Shown here: positions 1,480-61,848 of the stretch, one piece after another
Numbering within the stretch: the first letter of the stretch is position 1
How the letters are laid out: each line of letters opens with the position of its first letter
Assembly (NCBI GenBank): GCA_964106915.2
Contig: OZ066921.1
Strand: one strand, 5' to 3'
Source: Podarcis gaigeae
Lineage: Eukaryota
Length of the DNA: 64,000 bases
Program-made: the position numbers and the translations under genes
The notes under the pieces: model-generated
Told to the model about the DNA's origin: nothing
Database searches by the model: none
The model's input: the letters and a program-made list of their open reading frames with translations, nothing else

Positions 1480-34222
<32,743 letters not shown>

Positions 34223-45830: not shown

Positions 45831-46074
45831 ACCTTGCCTTTCTCTATTCTTGCTCTGAGTTGTAATGCAATAAGATCTGAAAAGCAGGGGCACCCCTCCA
45901 GAAGTTGTTATGCTTCAACTCCGGTCACCACTGCTCATGCTGACTGGGGCTGATGGGATTTGGAGTCCAACACCCTCTGAAGGTACACCGCCACCGCCGC
46001 TAAGGAGTCAGGGAGGGCTCTTGCGTCTGTTGCTGTGGCCACAGTCTAACCGGGCCTCTCTGCCTCCTCTCCAG

Positions 46075-46695
46075 ATGCCAGTGAGGCTCTCCACAGCCCT
46101 GCGTGTTTTTGGGACCAGCCTCTTTGCCGTGGTGGTGCTGGGGGGCATCCTTGCTGCCTACGTCACGGGCTACCAGTTCATCCACACCGAGAAGCACTAC
46201 CTCTCCTTTGGGCTCTATGGTGCCATCCTGGGCCTCCACCTCTTCATCCAGAGCCTCTTTGCCTTCCTGGAGCACCGGCAGATGCGCCTGGAGGGCCGGC
46301 CCCTGAAGCTGCGCTCCTCGGTGGCCCTCTGCATCGCCGCCTACCAGGAGGACCCCGACTACCTGCGCAAATGCCTGCGCTCCATCCAGCGCATCTCCTT
46401 TCCCAACCTCAAGGTCGTCATGGTGGTGGACGGCAACGGGGAGGACGATGTTTACATGCTGGACATCTTCAATGAGGTGATGGGCTCCGACCGGACAGGC
46501 TGCTACGTGTGGAAGAGCAACTTCCACGCCCGGGGGAAGGGCGAGTCGGAGGCTGGCCGCCGCAGGGCCATGCGCCACATCCAGAGCCTCGTCCGGCACA
46601 ATACATATACCTGCATCATGCAGAAGTGGGGCGGGAAGCGCGAGGTGATGTACACGGCCTTTTGTGCCCTTGGAGACTCTGTCGACTACGTGCAG
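46075..46695 (+). CDS. HAS3: HAS3 first coding exon
   Basis: ccAG|ATG start, GTGAGT donor, 621 nt. Confidence 0.96.
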
Positions 46696-49600
46696 GTGAG
46701 TGTGGGGGGGGGGGCAGAGCCCTGCTCCTTGCCCTTGCTAGCCTGCTGTTGCTCTTCCTTCTCTGTGTTTTCCCATTCATGCTCATCCCACGACCCAGGC
46801 ACTTGTCAGAAAGCAGAAAATGGGAGGGGGGAGTATTAGCTACATGCAAAATGATTTGGAGAGATACTTGGGTCTGGGCTCCTTGGCCCCCATAGTAAAC
46901 ACAGCCCTAAATGGCAACTCTCTGTCTCCCTGCACCCTGATACATTGGTGATGTGAGCTTGAGGGAAGCAGGGCTACAATGAGCTGCTTCTTCACACTCT
47001 GGGGCCTGAACATGTAATCAGCCCCTCTTTGGAGCAGCTGGTTGCTTCTCCTTAGCTCAGTGGTAGAGCATCCGCCTTGAATGCACAAGGTTCCAAGTTC
47101 AATCCCTGGCATCTCCAGGGAGGGTGGGAGAGAGACCCCTGCCTGAAATCCTGGAGAGCCGCTGCCAGTCAGTGTTGAGACAATATTGAGCAAGATGGAC
47201 CAATAGTTTGACTCAGTATAAGACAGCTTTCTATGATCCTGAGTGGTAGAGCACCTGTTTTGCATGCTGAAGGTCCTGGGTTCACTCCCCAGTGACATTT
47301 CCAGCTTGGGAAGGATGGAAAGCTACTGTGGACAATACTGAGCTGGGTGGACAAATGGTCTGATTTGGTATAAGGCAGCTTCCCCAGTTCCTTAAGCCCT
47401 TTGTATAGAATCTTGAGGACTGGAATCTTGATTTATTTTTTAAGGAAAGGCCACAATCGAGTTGCAAAGCAGTGGATTCAATCCCCAGGTTCAATCCCCA
47501 GTATCTCCAGGTAGGGCTGGAAGAGACCTGTCTGAAACCATGGAAAGCTGCTGCTGATCAGTGCAGGCAACACTGAGCTAGATGGATCCAGGCAGCTTCC
47601 AATGTTCCTCCTGAGCTCATAACTCAGCCTCCAATCTGACAGCAGGAAAACAGTTCTTCTTTCACCCTGGTGTAAACTCAGAGGCTTCTCCTCTGCTCCC
47701 TTCCACTAATGCACTGTAGTTCTGAGCAGCAGGTGTAACAGAAAGGGATGGCAGAATGTAATTATTGAGGGTAGATATATATTGATATATTCCATATATA
47801 CACACCCCTTTCTTTCATAATGGAACCCAAGCATGGTTCCCAAGCAATCTCTCATCCAAGGGCTGACCAGCCCCAGACCTGCATCACTTCAGCAATATGA
47901 TGGCCTAATGTGCCTTCAGCACCTTCTGGGGGACCTCCTTGCAAGCAGAAAACTGGCAGGCAAAGGAGAGAGGTGGTACCTCAGCCCTTTGCTAGGTGCT
48001 CTGCTTTTAAATTTACAGGAGGTTTTAACTTATGGAGGCATTCAAAACAGGACCTGGAGGTGAAAAGTGTTGCAGTCCATTCTTCCATTTCATTCTGCTG
48101 TCTGAATAGACCATCTCTGGGCTCCTTGCATAAGAGAGGAGGCAGGTGCAGGGTATGCCCATACTGTATCTCTCATTTTGGGATTTGCTTCTGTTTTCTG
48201 CTTCCCTGCCCTCCAAAAATGCAGGATTCTTCAGCTGGGCCTGATCCCCCTTCTCTGGCCTGCATGGCTGCTGAACAGGTATCAGCTGCCCCCTCAATAT
48301 AGGACGCTACCTTATACAGTCAAGACCCCTGGTCCATCTAGTTCACTATTATCATACATGTCCAGGGTTTCAGGTAGGGGACCAGGAGATGCCCTTGGGG
48401 ATTGAACCTTCTGCATGCAAAGCAGGTGCTCTGTTACTAAGCTAAAGCCCTTCACCGTACATTCTCTTGGGTGCAGATGCCCTGTGATTCTTCTGCCTTC
48501 ACCTGCTTGGGGACCTTACAATGCCTGTTTGGCAATGGAGACTGGCTCCCTCTCTCGTCTGTACCTGGTGTGACATCCACCTCCCTGCCACGTTCGGTCT
48601 GTGTTCACATGAAGAAGTGTCCAGGAGAGTTTGTGTCACTTCTCTATCATTCACTTACACTTATTATTATCATTAGTTAAACTTGTTAACTTGCGTGTGT
48701 GTGTGTGTATACACATACACTCACTCAATATGCACAGGCACAGAGATCTGAGTGCATTCCTCATTCTCCTCCCCTGGCCCTCCTCTCATTGGAGCTTCAG
48801 GAAAGTTGCAGTTCTCCTCCACCCTGGTTGCAAAAGAGCCCTTTACTCCCTGGGAAGGTGTGGAGCAGGGTCCCCCAGGGCAACATGCACAATTGTTCTG
48901 AAGGAGGTGGGGGCGTGCATTCCACTTGAAGGAAACGTCCATATGTACACTTTCTCTCCCCATACAAACAGTGTAATATTTGTCAAAAAGAAGCTGCCAT
49001 TTGTGTGAACATTCCTTAAGGGAAGGGACAGACAAGGGTGTCCTGACAAGGTATCTTTCTTTCCCTGGCAGGTATGTGACTCTGACACAGTCCTCGATCC
49101 AGCCTGCACAGTGGAGATGCTGCGCATCATGGAGGAGGATCCTCGCGTCGGTGGAGTTGGCGGGGATGTCCAGGTGTGGACCTGAGAGCACATGGCCATG
49201 CAGTGTCTGGCTCAGATAATGCTCACGGGGATGGCTCCTTTGGGCAGCCTTCCCAGAGTTGGTCCTCTTCCAGCTGTTTTGAACTACAACTCCCATCAGG
49301 CTCAGTGTCCTGCAGCTTACTGGATGGGGTGCATGGAATTTGTAGTTCAAAACAGCTGGAAGAGGAGGCCTTCTGTCCCTCAATAATTGGGGTCAGCCAC
49401 AGGTCAGCTTGATACGCATCTGTGGGTAAAGAAAACTGGTACAGGAGCCAACCTGTCCATTGGAGGGAGGGTTGTGGAGGGCCCATGATGCAGTGTTGCC
49501 TCTTTCCCCCAGATCCTGAACAAGTACGACTCGTGGATCTCCTTCCTGAGCAGTGTGCGCTACTGGATGGCCTTCAACGTGGAGCGGGCCTGCCAGTCCT

Positions 49601-50436
49601 ACTTTGGCTGTGTCCAGTGCATCAGCGGCCCCTTGGGCATGTACCGCAACGCCCTGCTGCAGCAGTTCCTGGAGGACTGGTACAACCAGACATTCCTGGG
49701 CAGCAAGTGCAGCTTCGGGGATGACCGCCACCTCACCAACCGGGTCCTGAGCCTGGGCTACCGGACTAAGTACACGGCCCGCTCCAAGTGCCTGACTGAG
49801 ACGCCCACCAGGTACCTCCGCTGGCTCAACCAGCAGACGCGCTGGAGCAAGTCCTACTTCCGGGAGTGGCTCTACAACGCCCTCTGGTTCCACAAGCATC
49901 ACCTGTGGATGACCTACGAGTCGGTGGTGACGGGCTTCTTCCCCTTCTTCCTCATCGCCACCGTCATCCAGCTCTTCTACCGCGGGCGCGTCTGGAACAT
50001 CCTCCTCTTCCTTCTGACGGTGCAGCTGGTGGGCGTCATCAAGGCCACCTACGCCTGCTTCCTGCGCGGCAACGTCGAGATGATCTTCATGTCCCTCTAC
50101 TCCCTGCTGTACATGTCCAGCCTCCTGCCGGCCAAGATGTTTGCCATCGCCACCATCACCAAGTCCGGATGGGGCACCTCCGGCCGCAAGACCATCGTGG
50201 TCAACTTCATCGGCCTCATCCCGGTCTCCGTCTGGGTGGCAGTGCTGTTGGGTGGGCTGGCCTACACTGCCTACTACCAGGACCTCTTTACAGACACGGA
50301 ACTGGTCTTCCTCATCTCGGGAGCCATCCTCTATGCCTGCTACTGGGTGGCGCTGCTCGCCCTTTACCTGGCAATCGTGGCCCGGCGCTGCAGCAAGCCC
50401 CAGGAGGAGTACAGCTTGGCGTTTGCGGAGGTGTGA
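46075..50436 (+). CDS. HAS3: Hyaluronan synthase 3; exons 46075-46695, 49072-49173, 49513-50436 (548 aa)
   Basis: N-terminus [17 protein letters not shown]...[18 protein letters not shown]; GT2 motifs [17 protein letters not shown] and QQTRW; C-terminus YSLAFAEV; 1647 nt in frame. Confidence 0.98.
47051..47610 (+). mobile_element. Cluster of three head-to-tail Squam3-like SINEs in a HAS3 intron; antisense copy at about 48300-48450
   Basis: three successive heads and bodies starting near 47051, 47240 and 47450. Confidence 0.8.
49072..49173 (+). CDS. HAS3: HAS3 second coding exon ([12 protein letters not shown]...GGDVQ)
   Basis: gcAG acceptor, GT donor, 102 nt, DSD motif. Confidence 0.96.
49243..49375. 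mobile_element. Short palindromic MITE; family also at about 870-960, 5040-5180, 5605-5725, 11985-12110, 27345-27480, 35620-35720, 40975-41112, 45195-45320, 45890-46000, 51380-51515, 59678-59812
   Basis: Recurrent pattern ccagatgttttggactacaactcccatc...gatgggagttgtagtccaaaacatctgg. Confidence 0.8.
49513..50436 (+). CDS. HAS3: HAS3 terminal coding exon ([18 protein letters not shown]...AEV*)
   Basis: ccccAG acceptor; contains ORF 49555-50436. Confidence 0.97.
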
Positions 50437-53400
50437 TGAGGATGAGGGGGGGGGGCGGGGAGTGCAATAATGGCAAAGGACTGGCAGCGTTTCCCCACAT
50501 AGTTGTGGGGCTTCAGGAGGGCTGGCCCCCCACCCTGCTCAGGACCTGATCCAGTTTTGAAATGTCCATCCCGGAAGCAAATTGGCAGATTCAGGAGTGC
50601 ATCAATGGGGAAGGAAGCCGGAGCCTCACAGAACGGATCCTGCTCAGTGGGCTTCCGGATCCTGCCCCTGCAGAAAGCTCAACAGCTCCTGGGAAAAGTT
50701 TCCACCACCAGGTGTCCCTGTCGTTCTATGCAAATGACACTGCCTCTCCCCAGAATAGCACCAATGTGGCAGGGACGTTGGGGGTGCAGTTTTTACAGGG
50801 AGCAATAATAATCTCCTCGTAGAGATCTATTAAAGAAGGGGCCCTTCTGTGCCCAGCGAAGAGACCATCAATAGGTTTTTTATCTTCCCTTGGAAGAGCT
50901 TTAAGGAGTTTGTGAGGGTTATTCTCTGTTCATGGGAGAAGCAAGTGGGACTTGAGCCACTGACGTCAAGGGGTTGCTTTCTAGGCGGAGGCCCCACAGG
51001 AGGTGGGGTGACAGGGCAGAACATGTGCTCCTTCCAAGAGGGGCTCCCTTCTGCCTGTAATCACTGCAGCTGCAGGACTGGAGAGAAATTTACTGAGAAG
51101 GAAAGGCTGGCAGTAGAAAAAACCATGTTTGGGCCAAAGCGGGAACATGCTGTTGCCCAAAGAATACATCACATGACTAGGCTGTCCATTTCTAAACAAA
51201 CACAAAATACTTGAAAGCTCCCTGATTGGCCCAATACAGCATGAGCCACAGCTATTGTGAATTCGATAAAACAGGTTGCAAACTGGATTGGTCAAATGTC
51301 TTCAGCTCCTTCTGGAGTTTTAGAGGGTGGACCACCTATTGCTACCTCCCTCTTTAGTCCAGGACTATGGATCATGCAAGTGGCCCTACAGATGCTGTAG
51401 GGACTCCCAGTTCCCTGACCAGTTACTGAACTCCAACTCCTGTCATCCCTGACATTGCTGGCTGGAGCTGGTATGAGCTGGGAGTCCAACAACATCTGCT
51501 TGGAGAAGGCTGCTGTAGCCCAGGTATCTTCAACCTTTTTGGACCTTTTCTGTCCCAGGACCCACTTTTTACCAAAGCATGCATGTAGAGATCTATTGCT
51601 TAACCTTCCACAATATTTGCATGGTGGTAGTACCCGACCAATCTTAGAGCACGCCATGACCCACCAGTTGAAGACCAGTGTTCTAGACCATATTTTGTTA
51701 TGCTTGGGTAGGTGTGTTAAAATACTTTAATGCTGTGAACAGAGCTGCCTGTCTGGAGATCTTCCTTTGGACCAGCCTCTCTCTCTTGGCCTCTGCTTAG
51801 CCTGGGCCTCCTAACTTTCTGGTGCTTCTCCTACAGACTTCCTCTCCCCCTGGTGCTCTGCCAACATGGCCACGTTACACTTCCAACTCAGAGAAGGGGG
51901 AGAAACTGTGGACAGTGGTGCTGCTTTTGGGAGGCCATTACCACCCAGTCTAAAAGCCATTTCTTGATTCACAATCTGCATCTCTGCCCAGCCCTTAAAA
52001 CTCCTTCCAGTCTCTGGCAAGAAGGTGTCTGTGTTGAAAGGGAAGCGGGGCTCCCAGCTTCAGCTGGCAACAAGCTCTGGGCAGCTTTTATGCCAAACTC
52101 ACATTGCTGAGATGGAAGTGCTCACCAGTTGTTCCTTGCCTGTTCCTAAGCTAGCAGGTCAGCATGGGAACAAAATGCTTAGGCACTTGCTGTAGTAAAT
52201 CCAGCATAGGCAAAGGCACAGATTTCCTGCAATTCCATTCGTGCAGAATGTGGAGGTCTGAAAAATCTCAGATTCCCTCCTTTTTATGGCTAAAAGAAAA
52301 CAAACCAAGTTTCTACAATTCGTATTTTTACAAAAAGTTCTGCAAATGTATAAGCAATATTTGCAAAGCACCTCGGAGGTGTTTTGAGTAGGAATGCTTC
52401 TTTAGTAGCTTACTTGTATTGTTCCTTTGGCCTCCACTCTGCTTCTTGAAAAAAGGGGGTTCTAAATTCAACAGAGTTATAAAACAGATGCCAAATAAGG
52501 CAGGCACATTTATGTTTAGACATATTTGTGTGGACCTTGATTTACAAAAATGTGTTTGCTTGCAAAAAATTAAAACAGGTTGCTGCTGAATTTGCTTAGA
52601 GCAGCACTATTCCAAAGTTGGCTCTTTCTTGCTTCTCAAGAGAAGCACTAGAAGGCCCTGTATGCTGGAGACTGGCTGACATTGGCCACACAACTTCCCC
52701 GTCCCCACAAGCACTGAATCCAATTGGTCGACAAGGAGCAGAGTGAAGAAACTTTCTGATTAGAGCAGATATATATTTATTATTACGGTACCTTTCACCT
52801 CCAAACTAAAGAGGGTGTTGTGTATATATGTGTGTGTGTGCGCGCCACACATACACACACTGGACAGGCTCCGACAACTTTTGTTTTCCTTGCTATGTAA
52901 GGGAGCTGAATAATCCCTGGGATGCAAAAGTAACTTGGATGCTTTTGCTCCAGATATGCTTTTTTTTGGGGGGGGTATGAGGGAGGTGGGCACACAGTCT
53001 TTTAGTGCATTGGATTTTTGTTTTTCCAAATACAAATTTGCCCATCAGCAATGAGGCTAGATACCTGATTTTTTACAAAACCAAGCAACTTCTCAGGATT
53101 CCACAAGAGACTTCTGTACCAAAATAATGTTCTGTGCTATGACCATGCCACCTCCTAGGTACAGAGGGCACCTGATCTATCTTTTGGCATTGGTGCTGTT
53201 CAGGAGCCTTACCAGTGCCCATCTTCCTATACTCCTTTCTGCCTCAGGGCAGTAAGCTGAGTCTGACTTTGTCCTGCTGCTGCTGCTGCTGCTAGGGGTT
53301 CCACTGCCCCAATTCCAAGTTCTCTCTCTGCTGCTTTCTTTCTGCCCATCCCACACAAGGTCCTGAATGCTATCTGAGGTTGTACCTGGAAATTCCTGCC

Positions 53401-54359
53401 TCTCCTGCCATGTTGCTTCATGTGAATTGACAGGAACAAGAAAAATAAGAGACAAGGAAGCAGTGGGCAAAGGGCAGCTTGCTACTCCCATGGGCCCAGG
53501 TGGCTGGGAGGACTAAAGTGGCTGGGAGGACTAAAGACTAAAGTGGCATCAGTGCCGATTCTGTCCTGCCATCTCTGGAAGGCAGATGGAGTCTGCACCG
53601 CCATCTAAGAAAGCAATAATGGCTCTTGGGCTGCAAGCTCCCTTTATTTAGGCACAGACTAGTGAAGAACTTTCCTATGCTGGGGACTGACTGCATAAAC
53701 AAAGCTGAGATAGATGTCTCCTTCCACTACTGTCACCAGAAAGGGCTGGTTCCCACCCCGCTCTGGATTCAGCATAACCTCACACCCTAAGGGCTGCTTG
53801 CCTAGCTGTTTCCCAGGGGCCCCAACCAGCTTGAAAAAAAATGGTTCTAAGCAATTCTTTGGGTGGCTGGGGGAGTGTATGGTACTCCCTGGCAAGAAAG
53901 AATGGCTGCTTTGCAGGCTAGGAGAGCTTGCAGCCCACACTAGAGCCTGCCTTTTAAAAGGCTGCCCTGTTGGGGGGAGCCATGTGAAACAGTAACTGCT
54001 TGCTCTGTAACCTGCCTAAGGCAGATGCCTCCCAGCAAAGAGCTGCCAAATCAAACTGTTGTATGGACAGGGCTGATCAGTGTTGAGAGTGCATGAGTAT
54101 CTGACAGCCTTTAAAGGCTGCTCCCAAGAAACACTGTGGCAAAAGATGGAGAGCTTCCTCAAGTTCCTCTTTCCAGCTGTGCATCCTTCCTAATTGCGAA
54201 TGTCTGGAAATGCTGCTTTCTGCCCGTGCTGTTCTCTGCGGCCTGCGCTGGTCCCAGGCATGAGAGTGGAGGGATGGGTGGGTAGGATGCCAGGCTTTGC
54301 TCCCCCTCACTTCCCTGTTCTGGGCTGCATCCCCTTTTCTATGTTACTCCGTTTGGGTT

Positions 54360-54545
54360 TCTCTTATTTAAAATGAAATTTGTAGAATTTTTTGTACTCT
54401 TTGGTAACAAACACTAGTTGATTGCTTAAAGTTATTTGTAAACTTATTTATTTTTTACCTGCATTTTCATATTTTTTATAAAGGTTGTGTGTTTTTTTTT
54501 TACTATGATGCATTTGTTACAATAAAAAATACCTTGCAAACAAGA
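54360..54545 (+). terminator. AU-rich 3' UTR terminus with AATAAA at 54521-54526 (probable HAS3 poly(A) region)
   Basis: Sharp AT-rich block with TATTTA elements followed by AATAAA; assignment to HAS3 is an inference. Confidence 0.5.
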
Positions 54546-55578
54546 TGGTCTAGAGTATATTTGGGACGTTTTCTGCCCATCCCCTCCCTTCACCAACGAG
54601 CACACAATCTGAGTGGGGTGGGAGGAAGACACTGGCAGGGGCAAAGAACCAGGTCTAAGCTAGCTGAAATCTGCAGGAAATTTCAGCCTGATTTCCCTTT
54701 CAGCCATTCTGATTTCCTATTTGCCAACAAGACCTCCCCAAAGAACTGGAATTCAATAGTCACCCCCTCCCCCAAAATGTCCTAGAGACAAAAAATAAAG
54801 GCAGACCAGAACCTAATCATCTCCTAGTGTCTGAAAAAGAGAAGCCCATTTCTCAAAAGGCACTTTAGCAACAGCTGAGCTCCCCACCCAGGGAACCCAA
54901 GAGGCAAAAAGCGCAATGCTATGTTCTCCAAGAGTGCTGAGCTCCTTGAAGAATGGAATCAAGAACCCAGGGAGAACTAAGTGACCAGAAGGGACCATAA
55001 CGGGGCTTGAGTTTCTGCACGAGATAACACTAGAGAGTCATCCATGCTGACTGGAACTGGTGGGAGTGTTAGTCCAGAAGACATCAGGTTTGCAGAGGTC
55101 ACCAGCCCTTGAAAAAGGATCTAAGCAGAAACCAAGAGCAGAGTCCTCCATCCCTGGGGTGAAGATCTGGCTAATATTACTCAGGTGCCCCAATAACTTT
55201 TATTTGTTCACTGGTCTCTGGATTTTGGGGCAAGGGGCTCAGCACTTTAGCAAAGACACCGGGTTGAATCCCACAGCTGAGCTGCTCTTGGGGAAAGCAC
55301 TGGCTATTTGAACACACTGGGCATGGGTGCTGGATTGTCCCAGACACTGGCTTTAGTCCCACAGAGACTGGCATCTGAGATAAGGCAGTTCTCCCAAGGG
55401 CTGGGTTCACACAACAGATTGCATAACCTGGAACGGAAAGCACTGAGTTCCAACAAGCTGGCTAAGTGGACAGGATTTGTCCCTTTCGGCACAGTCCCCG
55501 GCACTCTGCAAGGAAGTAGGCAGACCTTCCTCCATGCGAACGAGGCACCAGTGTGCTTGGAGGTGGGCTGCAGCATCC

Positions 55579-56153
55579 TCAGGCTTTCTTGGCCACATTG
55601 GTGATGATGGGCTTGGGGCGGGTTTTGAAGAGCAGCTTCTTCTTTATGAGGGCGGTGACTGAGTAGTGGCCTGGTCCCAAGCTCGCCTCGCCTCCAGCCA
55701 CCGCTTGCTTGGTCAGGACGGCAAAGGGCTTCTCTAGCCGCACAACTTTACCATACAGGATGTGGTGCCCCACAATGAGCACAGGGACTCCCTAGAGAGA
55801 GAGATTAGACAGTGGGGGCACTCAAGCCTTGCAGAGAGAGTGGTATGGAAGGAAGCCAGTCTCAACCAAGAACTCCCCTCACATCCGCAAGCACCTGGCT
55901 AGTTTCTCACCTCTTTGGTGTAATGTAGGTCCCCCAAGAGCCTCCCTGCCAGGCCAGCCCCAGATCGCGATTCCAGCTCTCCTTGGAGCTCCATCAGCAC
56001 CCACTCCGCCAGACCTCCAACCCCATCCCTGCAAGGAAAAGACGAGGAAGGGAAGAGCTGTTATAGGTCACGAGGTGTAGCAAAGAGATCATTCCCGAAC
56101 CATCCCCGCTAGAAGCCAGTGCAGACTCACCGGGACACGACCAGCTGCACCAT
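55579..56153 (-). CDS. CHTF8: Chromosome transmission fidelity factor 8; exons 56153-56131, 56028-55911, 55791-55579 (117 aa)
   Basis: Spliced product [62 protein letters not shown]...[16 protein letters not shown] matches Ctf8; GT-AG introns of 102 and 119 nt. Confidence 0.96.
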
Positions 56154-56629
56154 CGTCCCACGGTTCCTCTGCAACAAGGAGAACAGGGGTTTGAAAGCAG
56201 GGTGAGAACGGGCAAGACGCAGATTTTCCCTCGTTCACCCCAGCGGGGCTCCCGGCCCAGAGGCAGCTAAGGGGCAGTCCCCCACCCCCAGCAGTGCCAA
56301 TCTCGGGCGGAGATCCCCCTTTCCTACGAAGACCCGCCCGCGGGCTCCCCTCTTCCTGGCCCTGCGATGCCGAGGGCGGTGGCCAGTCCGGTACCCTCAG
56401 GCGAGCAAACTGACGCAGCCGCAGCATCCAGCAAATAGGGCGAGCCGCTTCCCTGTGCTTGTTCCAAGGACAGGAACTCTGCAGGCGCTCAGAGTCACTC
56501 TCATCCCTGGACGCCAGGGGATCCAGAAACTCCGCGCCCCGGCGTCTCTGTTGGAGCGGCACTCTGCACGCGCTCAAGAGCGCGCTCGGCGCTTTTCTTT
56601 TTCTCTTCCCCCCCAGCTCCGCCACGCAC

Positions 56630-56805
56630 CTCACTCAGAATCTCCCGAACCTCCCGCCTCGCCGAAGCCCCGGAAGTCCCTCCCCTCGCCCCTAGATGAC
56701 TTCCGCTTCCGGGCTTAGAGGGGCGGCGCGCACGTGGAAACCGGGCTCGCTTCGCTCTGTCTCCGCGCTCTCCGGACGCTCGACCGGTGCTATTCCCTGC
56801 CTGCC
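56630..56805. promoter_or_regulatory. Bidirectional CpG-island promoter of CHTF8 (-) and UTP4 (+); CHTF8 non-coding exon 1 probably ends at 56630
   Basis: ETS/GABPA-type CCGGAAGT (56670) and tandem ACTTCCGCTTCCGG (56699-56712), GC box (56720), E-box CACGTG (56731); head-to-head genes; minus-strand donor GAG|GTGCGT. Confidence 0.85.
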
Positions 56806-56967
56806 ATGGTCGAGTTCGAGGTGCACCGCGCACGGCTCTTCGCCTTTGTGCCGTCCGGGATCCGGTGCGTGGCTGCGTCCCGCCCTTCTCACCACCGCCT
56901 GGCCGTGGGCCGCCTCGACGGCTCCCTCGAGATCTACGACCTGCAGGCCAACATGTTCCAGGAGAAG
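56806..56967 (+). CDS. UTP4: UTP4 coding exon 1
   Basis: strong Kozak gccATGG, GTGAC donor. Confidence 0.93.
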
Positions 56968-59900
56968 GTGACTCTGGCTCCCCAGTGGTTGGCATTCAGG
57001 GGTAGACTGCCCGTGCACTTGAGGGCTCCACCTGGCACCCATTTGACAGGTCTCCACCTCTGTGAGGTTTTAATGGCATCTTAGCCATTGTCTGACCCCA
57101 GATCTTGTGGCCTTGAGTTCCACAAGCTAGTTCTTTCCTCCGTGAAGTAATATTAGCTTATCCAGGCACAGCTGAGCTCACAGTGGCAGAGAGCCCTTTG
57201 GCTCCGCTGAGGCTGGGAATTGGAGCCCCAAAGAATTGCTTCCCTGGGGGATGCCCTGGCTAAACAGCTACTTGCTGGGCATTCTTTGGGGCACGAGGCT
57301 GGGTGGCACACTGACTCACCAAGCCTCTCTGTACTTTACTTCTGTAATCAGGAGGTATATCAGTCAGTGTTTGGGGTTTCTGGCTGCAAAGTTCTCCAGT
57401 CTGAGCCCAGCACAGGTTCATCGTGTGTGTGATTCCTCCCAGCTAAACTTTGTGTATGTGTGTTAAAAGGAGGCCATTGACACCCAGAGCCTACAAGAAA
57501 CACCTTTCCTTAAACCAGAAAACTGTTCAGGATTGCTTCTTGGTTTAGGGGTCCTGCACCTTCCCCTTACCTATGACTTATCTCTCCAGGTCATTGCTGG
57601 CCACGATACGAGGATCCCAGAGGCGCTCTGCTGGGCAGCAGGAGACCGGCTCTTTGGTGCAGGTCTCAGTGGCGAAATTGTTGAATACAACTTGGAGAAG
57701 CTGAATGTCAAATATTCGTTGGATGCTTTTGGAGGTCCTATCTGGAGCATGGTGACTGATCCAACTGGGACTCAATTGGCGGTAGGTGCCCCTAGTATCC
57801 CAGAGAGGGGCAGCTTGAAAATGTGGTAATGAAGTCTTGTGCTAGCAAGAGAACATCCCTTAGAGGAGGGAATAGCACTTGATGATTTAGAACAATAAGG
57901 GGTGTAGATTCAGGTAAGTAGCCTCCCTTTCCTATAAATTCCTATAAATTCTAATTGTTATTAATACAAAATACCTTTTACTTATGGTCACCAATCTAAG
58001 CAATGCACTTTACTATACATCATTTGATATCTGTAATAACTAGTAATTTTGCTGTATACACTTTGACCAGGAGGGTTTATTTCACATGCACATTAGGAGA
58101 AGCTTATTGATAGTGCAGTTTGACAGTTGGATCAGTTATCTGCGGGGGTGGGCACTCCCTTGTCTCGGGTGTCTTCCAACTAGACAGCCATCTCTCTCTA
58201 GGGGATGCTCCTGCTCTCTGGATTTCCAACATCAATCGGGGGTTTGGATTAAACAGCTTATAAAGCTCCCTCCAGCTCTTCAATTTTCTGCATTTCATTC
58301 TCTTCTTCACTCAGTGTCCTGCTTCCTGAGGCTTAAATTTTTTCCTTGTGAGAAGGTACTTTTACAGCACCAGCTTGGCATCTGTTTCTGTGTTTGTGTC
58401 ATTGATAATCTTGTGTAGTTCGGTCAGTCAGAGCTCAAATTATTGGGCAAAGCCCTCGACTCTTGGCTGTCTACCAGACAGGACTCTGAACAGGCTACTG
58501 ACCCTCTCTCTTGTTCTTACAGCTTGGTTGTGATGATGGATCCATTAAGCTCTTCAACATCTTACCAGATAGAATCGAGTTTGAGAGGCAGCTGGACCGA
58601 CAGAAAGGTTGGTTGTGGGTGGGGGTGCATGTGGGGGTCATGATGACCAACAGGATGAGCTCTGAGTCCATGTGCAGGAGGGGTAAAGGTAAAGGGACCC
58701 CTGACCATTAGGTCCAGTTGTGGCCGACTCTGGAGTTGCGGCGCTCATCTCACTTTATTGGCCGAGGGAGCCAGCGTACAGCTTCCGGGTCATGTGGCCA
58801 GCAGGACTAAGCCGCTTCTGGCGAACCAGAGCAGCACACGGAAATGCTGTTTACCTTCCCACCAGAGCAGTACCTATTTATCTACTTGCACTTTTACGTG
58901 CTTTTGAACTGCTAGGTTGCCAGGAGCAAGGGCTGAGCAACGGGAGCTCACCCCGTTGCAGGGATTCGAACCACCAACCTTTTGATCGGCAAGCCGTAGG
59001 CTCTGTGGTTTAACCCACAGCGCCACCCGCGTCCCTTGCAGGAGGGGTAGGGAGCCTGATTTCTTGTTGCTTGCAGAGGAAATGAGTTTGAGTCTTGGTA
59101 CGTCTTATATCTGAGACTCTCCTCTTCTGCCCCACCTTACCTTATAGGACGCACCATGTCCCTTTCCTGGCATCCATCAGGGACCAAGATCGTAGCTGGC
59201 TCCACTAACATCATCCGTGTCTTTGATGTCAAATCAGGTGAGTTCTGGAGTTAGGCATGTTTTATGCTGGGGCCAGGAATATGGTGTGTGTGTGTATGTG
59301 TCATTAGCTCATCCAAACAAGCTTCACCTTCATGATTTTGGTCTGTGGTGGCCATTAAGAATCAAGGACTGCACCCTCTTGACTGTGTCCCTTCCATACA
59401 CCCAGGTTCAATGGCAAGGAGAGGGCTGGCTTGCCCAAAGCTGGTGAACTCCCTTCCATTAGAGAGGGACCCATAATTCAGTGACAGAGCACATGTTTTG
59501 CAATCTAAAGATGTTAGGTTCAATTCCTGGCACCTCCACTTTGATGGCACATTATGGGAAAGAGCCTCTGCTCTGCCTGGAGAGCTGGGTTTGCCAGCCT
59601 TCTGTGGCCTGTGGGCATATTTACATACTGCAGAAACTCTTGCAGGCATCATATACATGCTGTAGCATATTCTGTTGCAGGTGTGGGGAACCTTTAGTCT
59701 CCCAGATGTGGCTGAGCTACAACTCCCATCAGCCCCAGCTAGCATGGCCAGTTGCCGGGGGTGATGGGAGTTATACTTCAGCAACATCTGGAGGGCCAGA
59801 GTTTCCTCACACCTCTTCTGTTGGCTACAACAGGGTGCTTCTTTCAGTCCTCATTTCAGCAGGAGGAGGAACCCTGGGTAGGCAGAGGTGCACCCACTGG

Positions 59901-61848
59901 TGCCATGTTGGTGACCCTCCCCATAGCGCCCTGTAAGCATTTGAGCAAAGGGGCTTTCCTCAAGGCCTTGTAAAGGCCTGGTTGGTTTGGGGTGACTGTT
60001 GGCAGCTGAGGCTAAGCAGACCCTGAGCGAGCCTGGTGCCTCCTTTGCAGGCCATGCTGTCCAGCGGATCCTCGTGGACCGGTGCTTCAAAGGGTCCCGC
60101 AAGCGGTTGCCTGTGGTGGTGTGGGACATACTCTTCCTTTCGGATGGCACAATTGTCAGCGCGGACTCTGCTGGGAAGGTGCAGTTCTGGGACTCGGAGA
60201 TGGGGACGCTGCTGTGGAGCCACCCTGTCAGCAAGTCAGCCGTGCTTTGCCTGGCTGGGTCTGAGGTAAGTTGCATGTTAAAGCCAGAGCAGCACTGGGG
60301 GCGGGGGAGGGTTGCAGCGTTTGCTTGAGTTTGACAAGCAGAAAGGAAAGCAGGAGTCACTTATGTGGCAGGACAGGGGGAGTGTGAAATTGAACTGCAG
60401 AATAACAACAGTCCAAGATTTGGAAAGTTGCAACCCAAGGCAAACTTTCTTACTCCTAAGGGGGAAGATAGACAGCTATCTTAGGGGATTGTGTGAGCAG
60501 AGTCCTCATTGGAGTGCAGCTTATTCCCATGCAGCCTTTGCCAACTGTGGCACTGATGGGAGCCGTAGTCCACCAGATCTGGATGGTCCCAGGTTGGCGT
60601 AGGTTGCTCTTGAACTCTTGGCCCTGTGATAATATGATGCCAGCTATCAGAAATTCATTTAAATCAAGACTTTGTGGCAGATAAAAGCACTTTGTGTGTT
60701 ATCCAGAGCCTCTAAAAGCCTGAGTGTGTATATGTGGCCATTCAGGGAAATGATATTGTTCTGTGCTGAATCTGAGCTTGACTGGGACATCCAGCTGACC
60801 AGTGCTGGTGGCCAGGAGGCTGAGCTTGATGGATCTATGGTCTGAGCCAACATGGCAGCCCATGGTCTGTGTAATGTGACTTCAGTGTGCGTCAGTTCAC
60901 TTATTTTTATTGCATGAGGTTCTGCATCGACCTGTTCTCTGCCATTAATACTTCCTCCCTGCAAACCTTTAGCTTGCCCAACTTTCTCCACAGGCAGAAG
61001 ACAGTATTTTGGTTGGCACTTCGGAGGGGATGGTATATCAGTTCCAGCTGCTACCGGTTAAGCTAGACAGTGCTGAGCTCCAGTGGGTGCGAACAAGGCC
61101 CTTTAAGCACCACACCCATGATGTGCGGACAGTAGCACATCTTGCAACAGCATTCATCTCTGGAGGTAGAGTTCACTGCAGTCGTGTGTGTGTGTGTGTT
61201 TGATTGCTTTGTGGTAAAGTACCTGCTTTGCATACAGAAGTTCATGGGTTCCATCCCCAGATGCCCATTTAAAAAGGACCACGTAGGTAGGAGGTGATGG
61301 GAAAGGCCTCCCTCTGCCTCCTGAGACCAAGTCAAAGTAGACAACATTGGTCCAAGTCACTGGTCTTCAACTAATGGGTCACTGTCTGATCCAAGGTGGG
61401 TCACAACATGAGCACTTCCACTATGCAAATACAGTGGTACCTCTGGATGCGAACGGGATCCATTCCGGAGCCCCGTTCGCATCCTGAAGCGAACGTAAGA
61501 TGCGCGTGCGCGGGTCGCGTTTCACTGTGCATGCACGTGACGTCATTTTGAGTGTCTGTCCATGCACAAGCAGTGAAACCCGGAAGTAACACGCTCCGTT
61601 ACTTCCGGGTCGCTGTGAAGCGCAACCTGAAAATATTTAAGCTGAATTGTATTCATCCCTAGGTATGACTGTATATGGCAAATGATTAAGGAATTGGTCC
61701 CCAAAACATATTTGGGTTAAAAGCAGGCCCTTGGTGTGAGAAGGTTGAAAACGACTGGTCTAGGAGAACCAGTAGTCTGATCTGGTGTGTGCACATACTG
61801 CCTATAGAAGGTGCTGTAATCTGTTGCATCTTGACCTGGTTTGCCCAT

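What the first reader, a model, noticed from the sequence alone, without database searches (positions are those of the whole stretch)
55085..55578. No intact DERPC ORF behind CHTF8, but a frameshifted DERPC-like remnant
Established (from memory): in human the CHTF8 last exon also encodes DERPC, a long Pro/Gly-rich protein that starts at the CHTF8 stop and is built of GxNPxxFPR-like repeats. Seen here on the minus strand: an ATG 2 nt after the stop (TGAggATG, 55576) opens only 90 codons, yet similar motifs occur across the three frames: RVPGTVPKGTNPVHL and DNPAPMP (ORF 55576-55304), VNPALGRTALSQMPVSVGLKPVS (ORF 55443-55177), ASAFPKSSSAVGFNPVSLLK (55304-55245) and DPFSRAGDL (about 55121-55095). 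A minus-strand AATAAA lies at 55199-55204. Inference: the two-ORF CHTF8/DERPC arrangement may predate mammals and have decayed in this lineage, or this is the precursor sequence. The stop-start adjacency also hints at reinitiation yielding a 90-aa peptide.
Basis: partly seen in the sequence, partly recalled or inferred. Interest (0 to 1): 0.7.

Follow-up and report, generated by a model that had tools for sequence, protein, structure and literature searches.

The report
Decayed DERPC gene behind lizard CHTF8
In a lizard genome, the spot where mammals encode a second protein (DERPC) in the last exon of the CHTF8 gene holds a short, broken copy of that gene, which suggests the two-protein arrangement is older than mammals and was lost in this lineage.

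Summary
The window is from a lacertid lizard: CHTF8 matches Zootoca vivipara at 114 of 117 residues. The described features are real: stop, ATG at 55576, 90 codons, AATAAA at 55204. The 540 nt behind the stop carry a degenerate repeat. Asn-Pro codon pairs number 5 against 1.3 in shuffles (14 of 2000). The units differ most at third codon positions (27, 21, 15 of 66; 288 of 20000 controls), a sign of past coding. Compared by eye with published human DERPC peptides, two 20-codon blocks in one frame and in human order have 7 and 9 identities, with 19 and 17 codons within one base. Chance expectation over all placements is 0.05 and 0.02 (second not corrected for its gap). No machine alignment with DERPC was possible, and no other reptile or bird was seen. 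Best reading: a decayed DERPC orthologue (one to three frameshifts, two stops), now 3' UTR. The remnant is a third of human length and runs to 55038, beyond the reported range. Reinitiation to a useful 90-aa peptide is unsupported.

The parts
56131..56153 (-). CHTF8 first coding exon part (ATG at 56153, 23 nt)
   Evidence: GT donor; spliced frame of 117 codons; 114 of 117 residues identical to Zootoca vivipara XP_034973726
55911..56028 (-). CHTF8 internal exon, 118 nt; skipping it would turn the CHTF8 frame into a 26-codon upstream ORF that stops at 55736-55734
   Evidence: skipping itself is not shown
55579..55791 (-). CHTF8 last coding exon part, ending in TGA 55581-55579
   Evidence: Pfam Ctf8 PF09696, E 1.1e-07, above cut-off; 96% identical to Zootoca CHTF8
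55304..55576 (-). 90-codon ORF, the 5' part of the DERPC remnant; A at -3 of the ATG; Asn-Pro units at 55477 and 55336
   Evidence: by eye Met1, Pro4, Trp15, Leu20, Pro22 equal human DERPC at the same index; tail probability 0.018 for positions 2-27
55339..55410 (-). Possible repeat unit in a second frame (Asn-Pro at 55407); the weakest of the blocks
   Evidence: loose by-eye likeness to human residues 102-121, not scored
55245..55304 (-). Block B, third frame: 20 codons, ungapped against human DERPC 368-387
   Evidence: by eye 7 identical and 19 of 20 within one base, expected 1.5 and 9.1; 0.049 expected over all placements
55239..55241 (-). In-frame TGA in the third frame
55199..55204 (-). 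AATAAA hexamer; its TAA (55202-55200) is the second in-frame stop; use as a poly(A) signal not shown
55095..55157 (-). Block D, third frame: 21 codons against human DERPC 479-498 with one unmatched codon
   Evidence: by eye 9 identical and 17 of 20 within one base, expected 1.3 and 8.5; 0.019 expected over all placements before any gap correction
55038..55076 (-). End of the remnant: a last unit like human 500-508, then TGA 55040-55038
   Evidence: by eye 2 identical and 8 of 9 within one base; not scored
54447..54452 (-). AATAAA in an AT-rich stretch, a rival and somewhat more typical 3' end for CHTF8
   Evidence: 4 GT and 5 TT dinucleotides downstream against 1 and 2 for the 55204 site

Best explanation
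The first 540 nt of the CHTF8 3' UTR in this lacertid lizard are an unprocessed pseudogene of DERPC. An amniote ancestor had a second reading frame in the last CHTF8 exon, starting at or next to the CHTF8 stop and built of Asn-Pro-x-x-Phe-Pro-Arg-type units. Mammals kept it as the 524-aa DERPC. In this lineage selection lapsed: the frame took one to three frameshifts (one certain, near 55312; a compensating pair around 55410 and 55338 if the 55407 unit is real) and two stops, and the codons drifted away from Gly, Pro and Arg. The locus now works as a single-protein gene for the Ctf8 subunit, and the remnant is untranslated or translated without use. Shown: gene structure, frames, stops, repeat and codon-position signal. 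By eye: block matches to human DERPC. Inferred: orthology, age, loss of function, no translation. Inferred for the old route of expression: skipping the 118-nt exon leaves a 26-codon upstream ORF and lets ribosomes reach the second start, with every stop in the last exon; the lizard keeps this layout.
For: Position: CHTF8 between a hyaluronan synthase and UTP4; the TOGA2 preprint states that CHTF8 and DERPC share the last exon with end-to-start overlap. Blocks B and D are in one frame and in human order, and the first ATG after the stop lines up weakly with human Met1 (0.018, one placement). Independent of the human sequence: Asn-Pro excess, self-similarity, identity among four units of 27, 21 and 15 of 66 at codon positions 1, 2 and 3, reached by 288 of 20000 random sets of Asn-Pro sites. 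Decay: stops in all three frames and no Phe-Pro-Arg, composition, CpG o/e 0.16 as in the downstream UTR (0.18) against 0.40 in the CHTF8 exon. UniProt once listed the human protein as 'CHTF8 isoform 2', in line with a splice-dependent product.
Against: No program aligned the region with DERPC; block matches are hand tallies with a scoring chosen by me, and each block alone is only borderline after correction (0.049; 0.019 before a gap correction that could raise it some tens of times). The N-terminal match is weak (4 identities of 26). DERPC is repetitive, so unit-to-unit assignment is ambiguous: block B also fits human 465-480 by eye. No protein search found a DERPC relative. Under strict scoring about one window tile in ten is as self-similar. 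The six pairs behind the codon-position count are not independent. No second genome was seen.
Confidence: 0.8

Rival explanations
1. The remnant is real but its first 90 codons are still translated, by reinitiation or scanning after exon skipping, into a new small protein.
For: ATG at 55576 has A at -3, the best context among the nearby ATGs except 55535; the frame is open from 55747 to 55304 (147 codons) and passes a stretch where a repeat unit seems to sit in another frame, as if two frameshifts compensate; the exon-skipped form would leave only a 26-codon upstream ORF.
Against: 90 of 2067 ATGs open such a frame; DERPC character is lost; no hit and the exact peptide is not among 15 billion sequences; an out-of-frame ATG at 55598 comes first; reinitiation after a 117-codon frame is inefficient in vertebrates (established knowledge, recalled).
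Confidence: 0.07
2. The sequence never coded in reptiles: it is a conserved 3' UTR repeat from which mammals later built DERPC (precursor).
For: No non-mammalian DERPC protein turned up; the LLPSight preprint lists only mammals; many matches are single-base rather than identical residues, as DNA-level homology would give.
Against: Third positions differ most among the units; the matches keep codon register over 20 codons; neutral DNA would not stay this close over more than 300 million years (recalled figure); Rfam shows nothing near its gathering score.
Confidence: 0.06
3. Chance resemblance between a mildly repetitive UTR and a low-complexity protein.
For: Each single test is modest (P about 0.01-0.05); motifs were chosen after inspection; searches were blank.
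Against: Several partly independent signals coincide at the one position predicted beforehand; the null uses the region's own codon frequencies; the other strand and the downstream UTR score at chance.
Confidence: 0.05
4. The gene is intact and the breaks are assembly errors.
For: Single-base indels are the usual long-read error.
Against: Two in-frame stops and broad residue decay besides the indels; the neighbouring CHTF8 and hyaluronan synthase exons are unbroken.
Confidence: 0.02

Closest known systems
Human CHTF8/DERPC locus (DERPC, UniProt P0CG12, 524 aa, 51.4 kDa, pI 12.4)
   Same: Second frame begins at the CHTF8 stop in the shared last exon; Asn-Pro-centred repeat units; blocks like human 1-37, 82-87, 368-387, 479-498 and 500-508 by eye; same frame relative to the CHTF8 stop if the human overlap is the four-base ATGA type (recalled, no call).
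   Different: Broken by frameshifts and stops; about 180 codons against 524; no counterpart seen for the long central Gly/Pro tract that carries the methyl-arginine sites; ATG lies two bases after the stop, not overlapping it.
Unitary (unprocessed, single-copy) pseudogenes of vertebrates, general class (recalled)
   Same: Lost orthologue left in place at the syntenic site with frameshifts and stops.
   Different: It lies inside the transcribed last exon of a living essential gene, so it stays expressed as UTR.
Dual-ORF vertebrate transcripts such as MIEF1/MIURF and SLC35A4/AltSLC35A4 (named in the TOGA2 legends)
   Same: Two unrelated proteins from one locus in different frames.
   Different: There the extra ORF is short and upstream; here it is long and downstream, and in this lizard it is dead.

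Membership tests
DERPC orthologue (gene lineage) | Lies in the last exon of CHTF8, beginning at the CHTF8 stop | tested here: met
   ATG two bases after the stop; human layout from the TOGA2 legend
DERPC orthologue (gene lineage) | Sequence similarity to DERPC above chance | tested here: met
   Hand tallies for two blocks and the N-terminus with a computed null and motif scans; no machine alignment, so moderate strength
DERPC orthologue (gene lineage) | Same neighbours (hyaluronan synthase tail to tail, UTP4 head to head) | tested here: met
   for the lizard; the human order and the label HAS3 are recalled
Functional DERPC protein | One long open frame | tested here: not met
   5 to 7 stops in each of the three frames over 55578-55030
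Functional DERPC protein | Gly/Pro/Arg-rich repeats with Phe-Pro-Arg and Asn-Pro-Arg methylation sites | tested here: not met
   Gly 4%, Pro 11%, Arg 4% in the 90-aa frame; no Phe-Pro-Arg in any frame
Functional DERPC protein | Translation shown by proteomics or ribosome profiling | not testable with these tools
Unitary pseudogene | Disabling mutations at the orthologous site | tested here: met
Unitary pseudogene | No intact copy elsewhere in the genome, and breaks shared by relatives | not testable with these tools
   Only this 64-kb window and no other vertebrate genome were available
Ctf8 family (the host gene) | Pfam PF09696 above the curated cut-off | tested here: met
   32.8 bits against 22

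The most novel reading that the evidence does not exclude
DERPC arose before mammals as a short (about 180-aa) repeat protein in the CHTF8 last exon; mammals tripled it by adding the arginine-methylated Gly/Pro tract, while lacertids broke it but kept the start codon and a 90-codon frame that is now translated from an exon-skipped transcript as a new, unrelated microprotein born from a pseudogene.
Probability: 0.06. Interest if true: 0.65.

Novelty: new member of a known kind. Interest (0 to 1): 0.38.

Why it matters
DERPC is a proteomically confirmed but poorly understood human protein that looks like a mammalian invention in the papers seen (one search lists only mammals). A decayed orthologue in a lizard would date the dual-coding locus to the amniote ancestor or earlier, predict intact copies in some reptiles or birds, and mark which units are old (the Asn-Pro-x-x-Phe-Pro-Arg type at both ends) and which may be a mammalian expansion (the central methylated tract). 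It also shows the gene is dispensable in at least one lineage. It is a single gene-loss record, easy to check in public alignments, and may already be visible in orthologue tables that I could not consult.

Tried and rejected
Protein searches for a DERPC relative: 90-aa ORF against proteins of 159-2000 aa, 0 of 17 candidates; 147-aa frame against 259-2000 aa, 0 of 337; phmmer against 1.84 billion representatives, 1 hit, only over the part that overlaps CHTF8 codons in the shifted frame, unnamed, sequence not read; CHTF8 last exon against proteins of 203-2000 aa, 7 hits of 125 candidates, 5 of the 7 read and none a CHTF8-DERPC fusion. Pfam: nothing for 6 of the 7 remnant or downstream frames (the seventh a sub-threshold phage-fibre match, E 0.078) and nothing for the third frame read with X at its stops. 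ESM Atlas: the 90-aa ORF gave only unnamed clusters at 0.85 or below with low recognition; the third frame stayed unsearched there. PDB: nothing for the 90-aa ORF (best E 1) and nothing at 0.001 for the CHTF8 last exon. Rfam 50400-57200: 3 matches, all far below gathering score. Tandem Repeats Finder found no array in the remnant; autocorrelation was flat. A non-coding 71-nt tandem unit was considered because the Asn-Pro sites are 70, 71 and 71 nt apart, and set aside: neighbouring units align poorly (score 22), alternate units better, and third positions differ most. The original DERPC paper (Sun et al. 2002, seen only as a reference) is not held. No structure or complex prediction was run: the peptide has no alignment and no binding is claimed.

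Full report
Setting. The minus-strand gene at 56153-55579 is CHTF8: three coding exon parts (56153-56131, 56028-55911, 55791-55579) with GT-AG ends give 117 codons, the last exon matches Pfam Ctf8 above cut-off, and the protein equals Zootoca vivipara XP_034973726 at 114 of 117 positions. The organism is therefore a lacertid lizard close to Zootoca; the species was not determined. UTP4 starts head to head at 56806 (PDB match) and a hyaluronan synthase ends tail to tail at 50436 (the label HAS3 and the same order in human are recalled).

What is known of the human locus. The TOGA2 preprint (10.64898/2026.06.30.735536; passages seen) says that CHTF8 and DERPC have distinct ORFs, share the last exon, and that the end of one overlaps the start of the other; it does not mention lizards, snakes or crocodilians. 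DERPC is P0CG12, 524 aa (supplement row of PMC13515763), pI 12.4 (supplement row of PMC8007824), formerly labelled CHTF8 isoform 2 and a CARM1 substrate (supplement rows of PMC5458078), with 16 methyl-arginine sites, many 12-15 residues apart (supplement rows of PMC7069091). Supplement files 3-5 of PMC8417332 print peptides covering residues 1-444 and 465-509 (92 of 142 places in file 5 seen; two rows around residue 360 are three letters short). These show Asn-Pro-x-x-Phe-Pro-Arg units in the C-terminal third and a different Gly/Pro-rich unit ending in Asn-Pro-Arg in the middle.

The observation. The stop, the ATG at 55576, the 90 codons, the five motifs and the AATAAA are all as described. 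The second 'ORF' has no ATG at 55443. All three frames over 55578-55030 carry 5 to 7 stops, so there is no intact DERPC.

Evidence from the lizard sequence alone. Asn-Pro codon pairs stand at 55477, 55407, 55336, 55265 and 55224: 5 against 1.32 expected, reached by 14 of 2000 shuffles and 2 of 256 window tiles; Phe-Pro pairs are not enriched. The region aligns with itself at lags near 140 nt; the score is reached by 1 to 28 of 1000 shuffles depending on scoring, but by 4 to 24 of 232 genomic tiles, and the downstream UTR is at chance. Around the first four Asn-Pro sites, with the anchor left out, pairwise identity is 27, 21 and 15 of 66 at codon positions 1, 2 and 3; 288 of 20000 random sets of four Asn-Pro sites show as large a first-and-second over third excess, and 593 of 20000 as much total identity. 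The pairs are not independent and the span was my choice, but this is the pattern of repeats that diverged while coding. Three short DERPC-type motifs scored by codon distance put the region above 983, 985 and 1000 of 1000 shuffles.

Comparison with human DERPC. No DERPC protein came out of the searches, so no program alignment was run. I compared the window codons with the printed peptides by eye and computed the chance of each tally from the region's own codon frequencies. Block B (55304-55245) against residues 368-387, ungapped: 7 identical and 19 of 20 within one base of a codon for the human residue, expected 1.5 and 9.1; 1.8e-07 per placement, 0.049 over all 505 x 530 placements. Block D (55157-55095) against 479-498, with one unmatched codon: 9 identical and 17 of 20, expected 1.3 and 8.5; 7.2e-08 per placement, 0.019 overall before a gap correction. 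The N-terminus, anchored Met to Met with no search: 4 of 26 identical (Pro4, Trp15, Leu20, Pro22) and 15 of 26 within one base, expected 1.6 and 11.2, tail 0.018. Unscored: 55336 matches residues 82-87 at 5 of 6, and 55076-55050 follows 500-508 at 8 of 9 within one base just before the final stop at 55040. B and D share a frame and keep the human order. Each block alone is borderline; together, at the one site predicted in advance, and with the internal signals, homology is likely. Because DERPC is repetitive the unit assignments are not unique (B also fits 465-480).

How it works. The most likely state is a dead gene inside a live one. The remnant spans 55576-55038, about 180 codons, with one certain frameshift near 55312, perhaps a compensating pair near 55410 and 55338, and stops at 55241 and 55202. 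The 90-aa frame has Gly 4%, Pro 11%, Arg 4%, Cys 7%, Leu 13%, no frame holds Phe-Pro-Arg, and CpG depletion equals that of the downstream UTR. That so much codon-level likeness survives suggests the protein stayed under selection for much of the reptile branch and was lost later (inference). The missing central tract is either a mammalian expansion or a lizard deletion; one genome cannot tell.

The reinitiation idea. Reinitiation after a 117-codon frame is unlikely in vertebrates (recalled). A more plausible route, for the ancestor and for any residual translation, is skipping of the 118-nt exon: the CHTF8 ATG then opens only 26 codons, ending at 55734, with a weak out-of-frame ATG at 55598 and the 55576 ATG (A at -3) downstream, all in the last exon. 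That human DERPC is made this way is my recollection and was not found in print. Nothing shows that the lizard peptide is made, and 90 of 2067 ATGs in the window open as long a frame. The AATAAA at 55204 contains one of the in-frame stops; its downstream context is weaker than that of the site at 54452, and neither has an upstream TGTA within 60 nt, so its use is undecided.

Novelty. Searches for DERPC (36 papers, 35 listed), DERPC with CHTF8 (3), the full name (7), CHTF8 with reptile or bird terms (15 of 3624 listed, none holding CHTF8) and DERPC with pseudogene or origin terms (15 of 4223 listed, none holding DERPC) showed, in titles, abstract starts and the passages read, nothing on DERPC outside mammals. 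The LLPSight preprint (10.64898/2026.03.01.708814, passage) names eight mammals. Passages of PMC3670891, 10.64898/2026.03.26.714600, PMC7141683 and 10.1101/2020.03.10.981001 add nothing on evolution. Subscription papers, orthologue databases and the TOGA2 supplements and annotation tracks were not visible and may already list DERPC in turtles or birds. The finding is best filed as a broken member of a known locus type: not a functional DERPC (two defining features not met), very probably of DERPC descent.

Verdict. Observation confirmed; interpretation partly supported. Decayed DERPC orthologue 0.80, live truncated peptide 0.07, non-coding precursor 0.06, chance 0.05, assembly error 0.02. Interest 0.38.

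Noticed in passing
window 56194-56427, minus strand: The 87-residue N-terminal extension of the Zootoca RefSeq CHTF8 isoform X1 (P0013) aligns here at 78% but changes frame before the CHTF8 ATG (tblastn frames -2 then -3), so the extension is not open in this species and is probably an annotation artefact.
   Followed up: partly
window 54447-54526 and 54794-54799: Poly(A) hexamers on opposite strands (minus 54452; plus 54521 and 54794) lie so that the hyaluronan synthase and CHTF8 3' ends could overlap by about 100-400 nt.
   Followed up: no
P0015 (Gambusia affinis gene model) against window 55576-56009 and 46171-50373: This fish gene model joins CHTF8 to the antisense frame of the hyaluronan synthase exons, which shows the same tail-to-tail neighbours in a teleost; by eye no DERPC-like units lie between them, but the model is spliced.
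   Followed up: partly
window 56153-56806: CHTF8 and UTP4 start codons are 653 nt apart, head to head, in a GC-rich stretch: a likely bidirectional promoter.
   Followed up: no
window 55304-55747, minus strand: The DERPC frame is open for 57 codons upstream of its ATG, across the CHTF8 last exon (147 codons in all); no ATG or evident splice acceptor uses it.
   Followed up: partly
window 49393-50538 and 46000-46737, minus strand: Long open frames (381 and 245 codons) opposite the hyaluronan synthase exons, as expected from GC-rich third positions.
   Followed up: no
window 53500-53536: A perfect 18-nt tandem duplication, 2.1 copies.
   Followed up: no
window 9336-9881 and 59362-59936: Stretches that resemble lizard short interspersed repeats (label recalled, not tested).
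   Followed up: no
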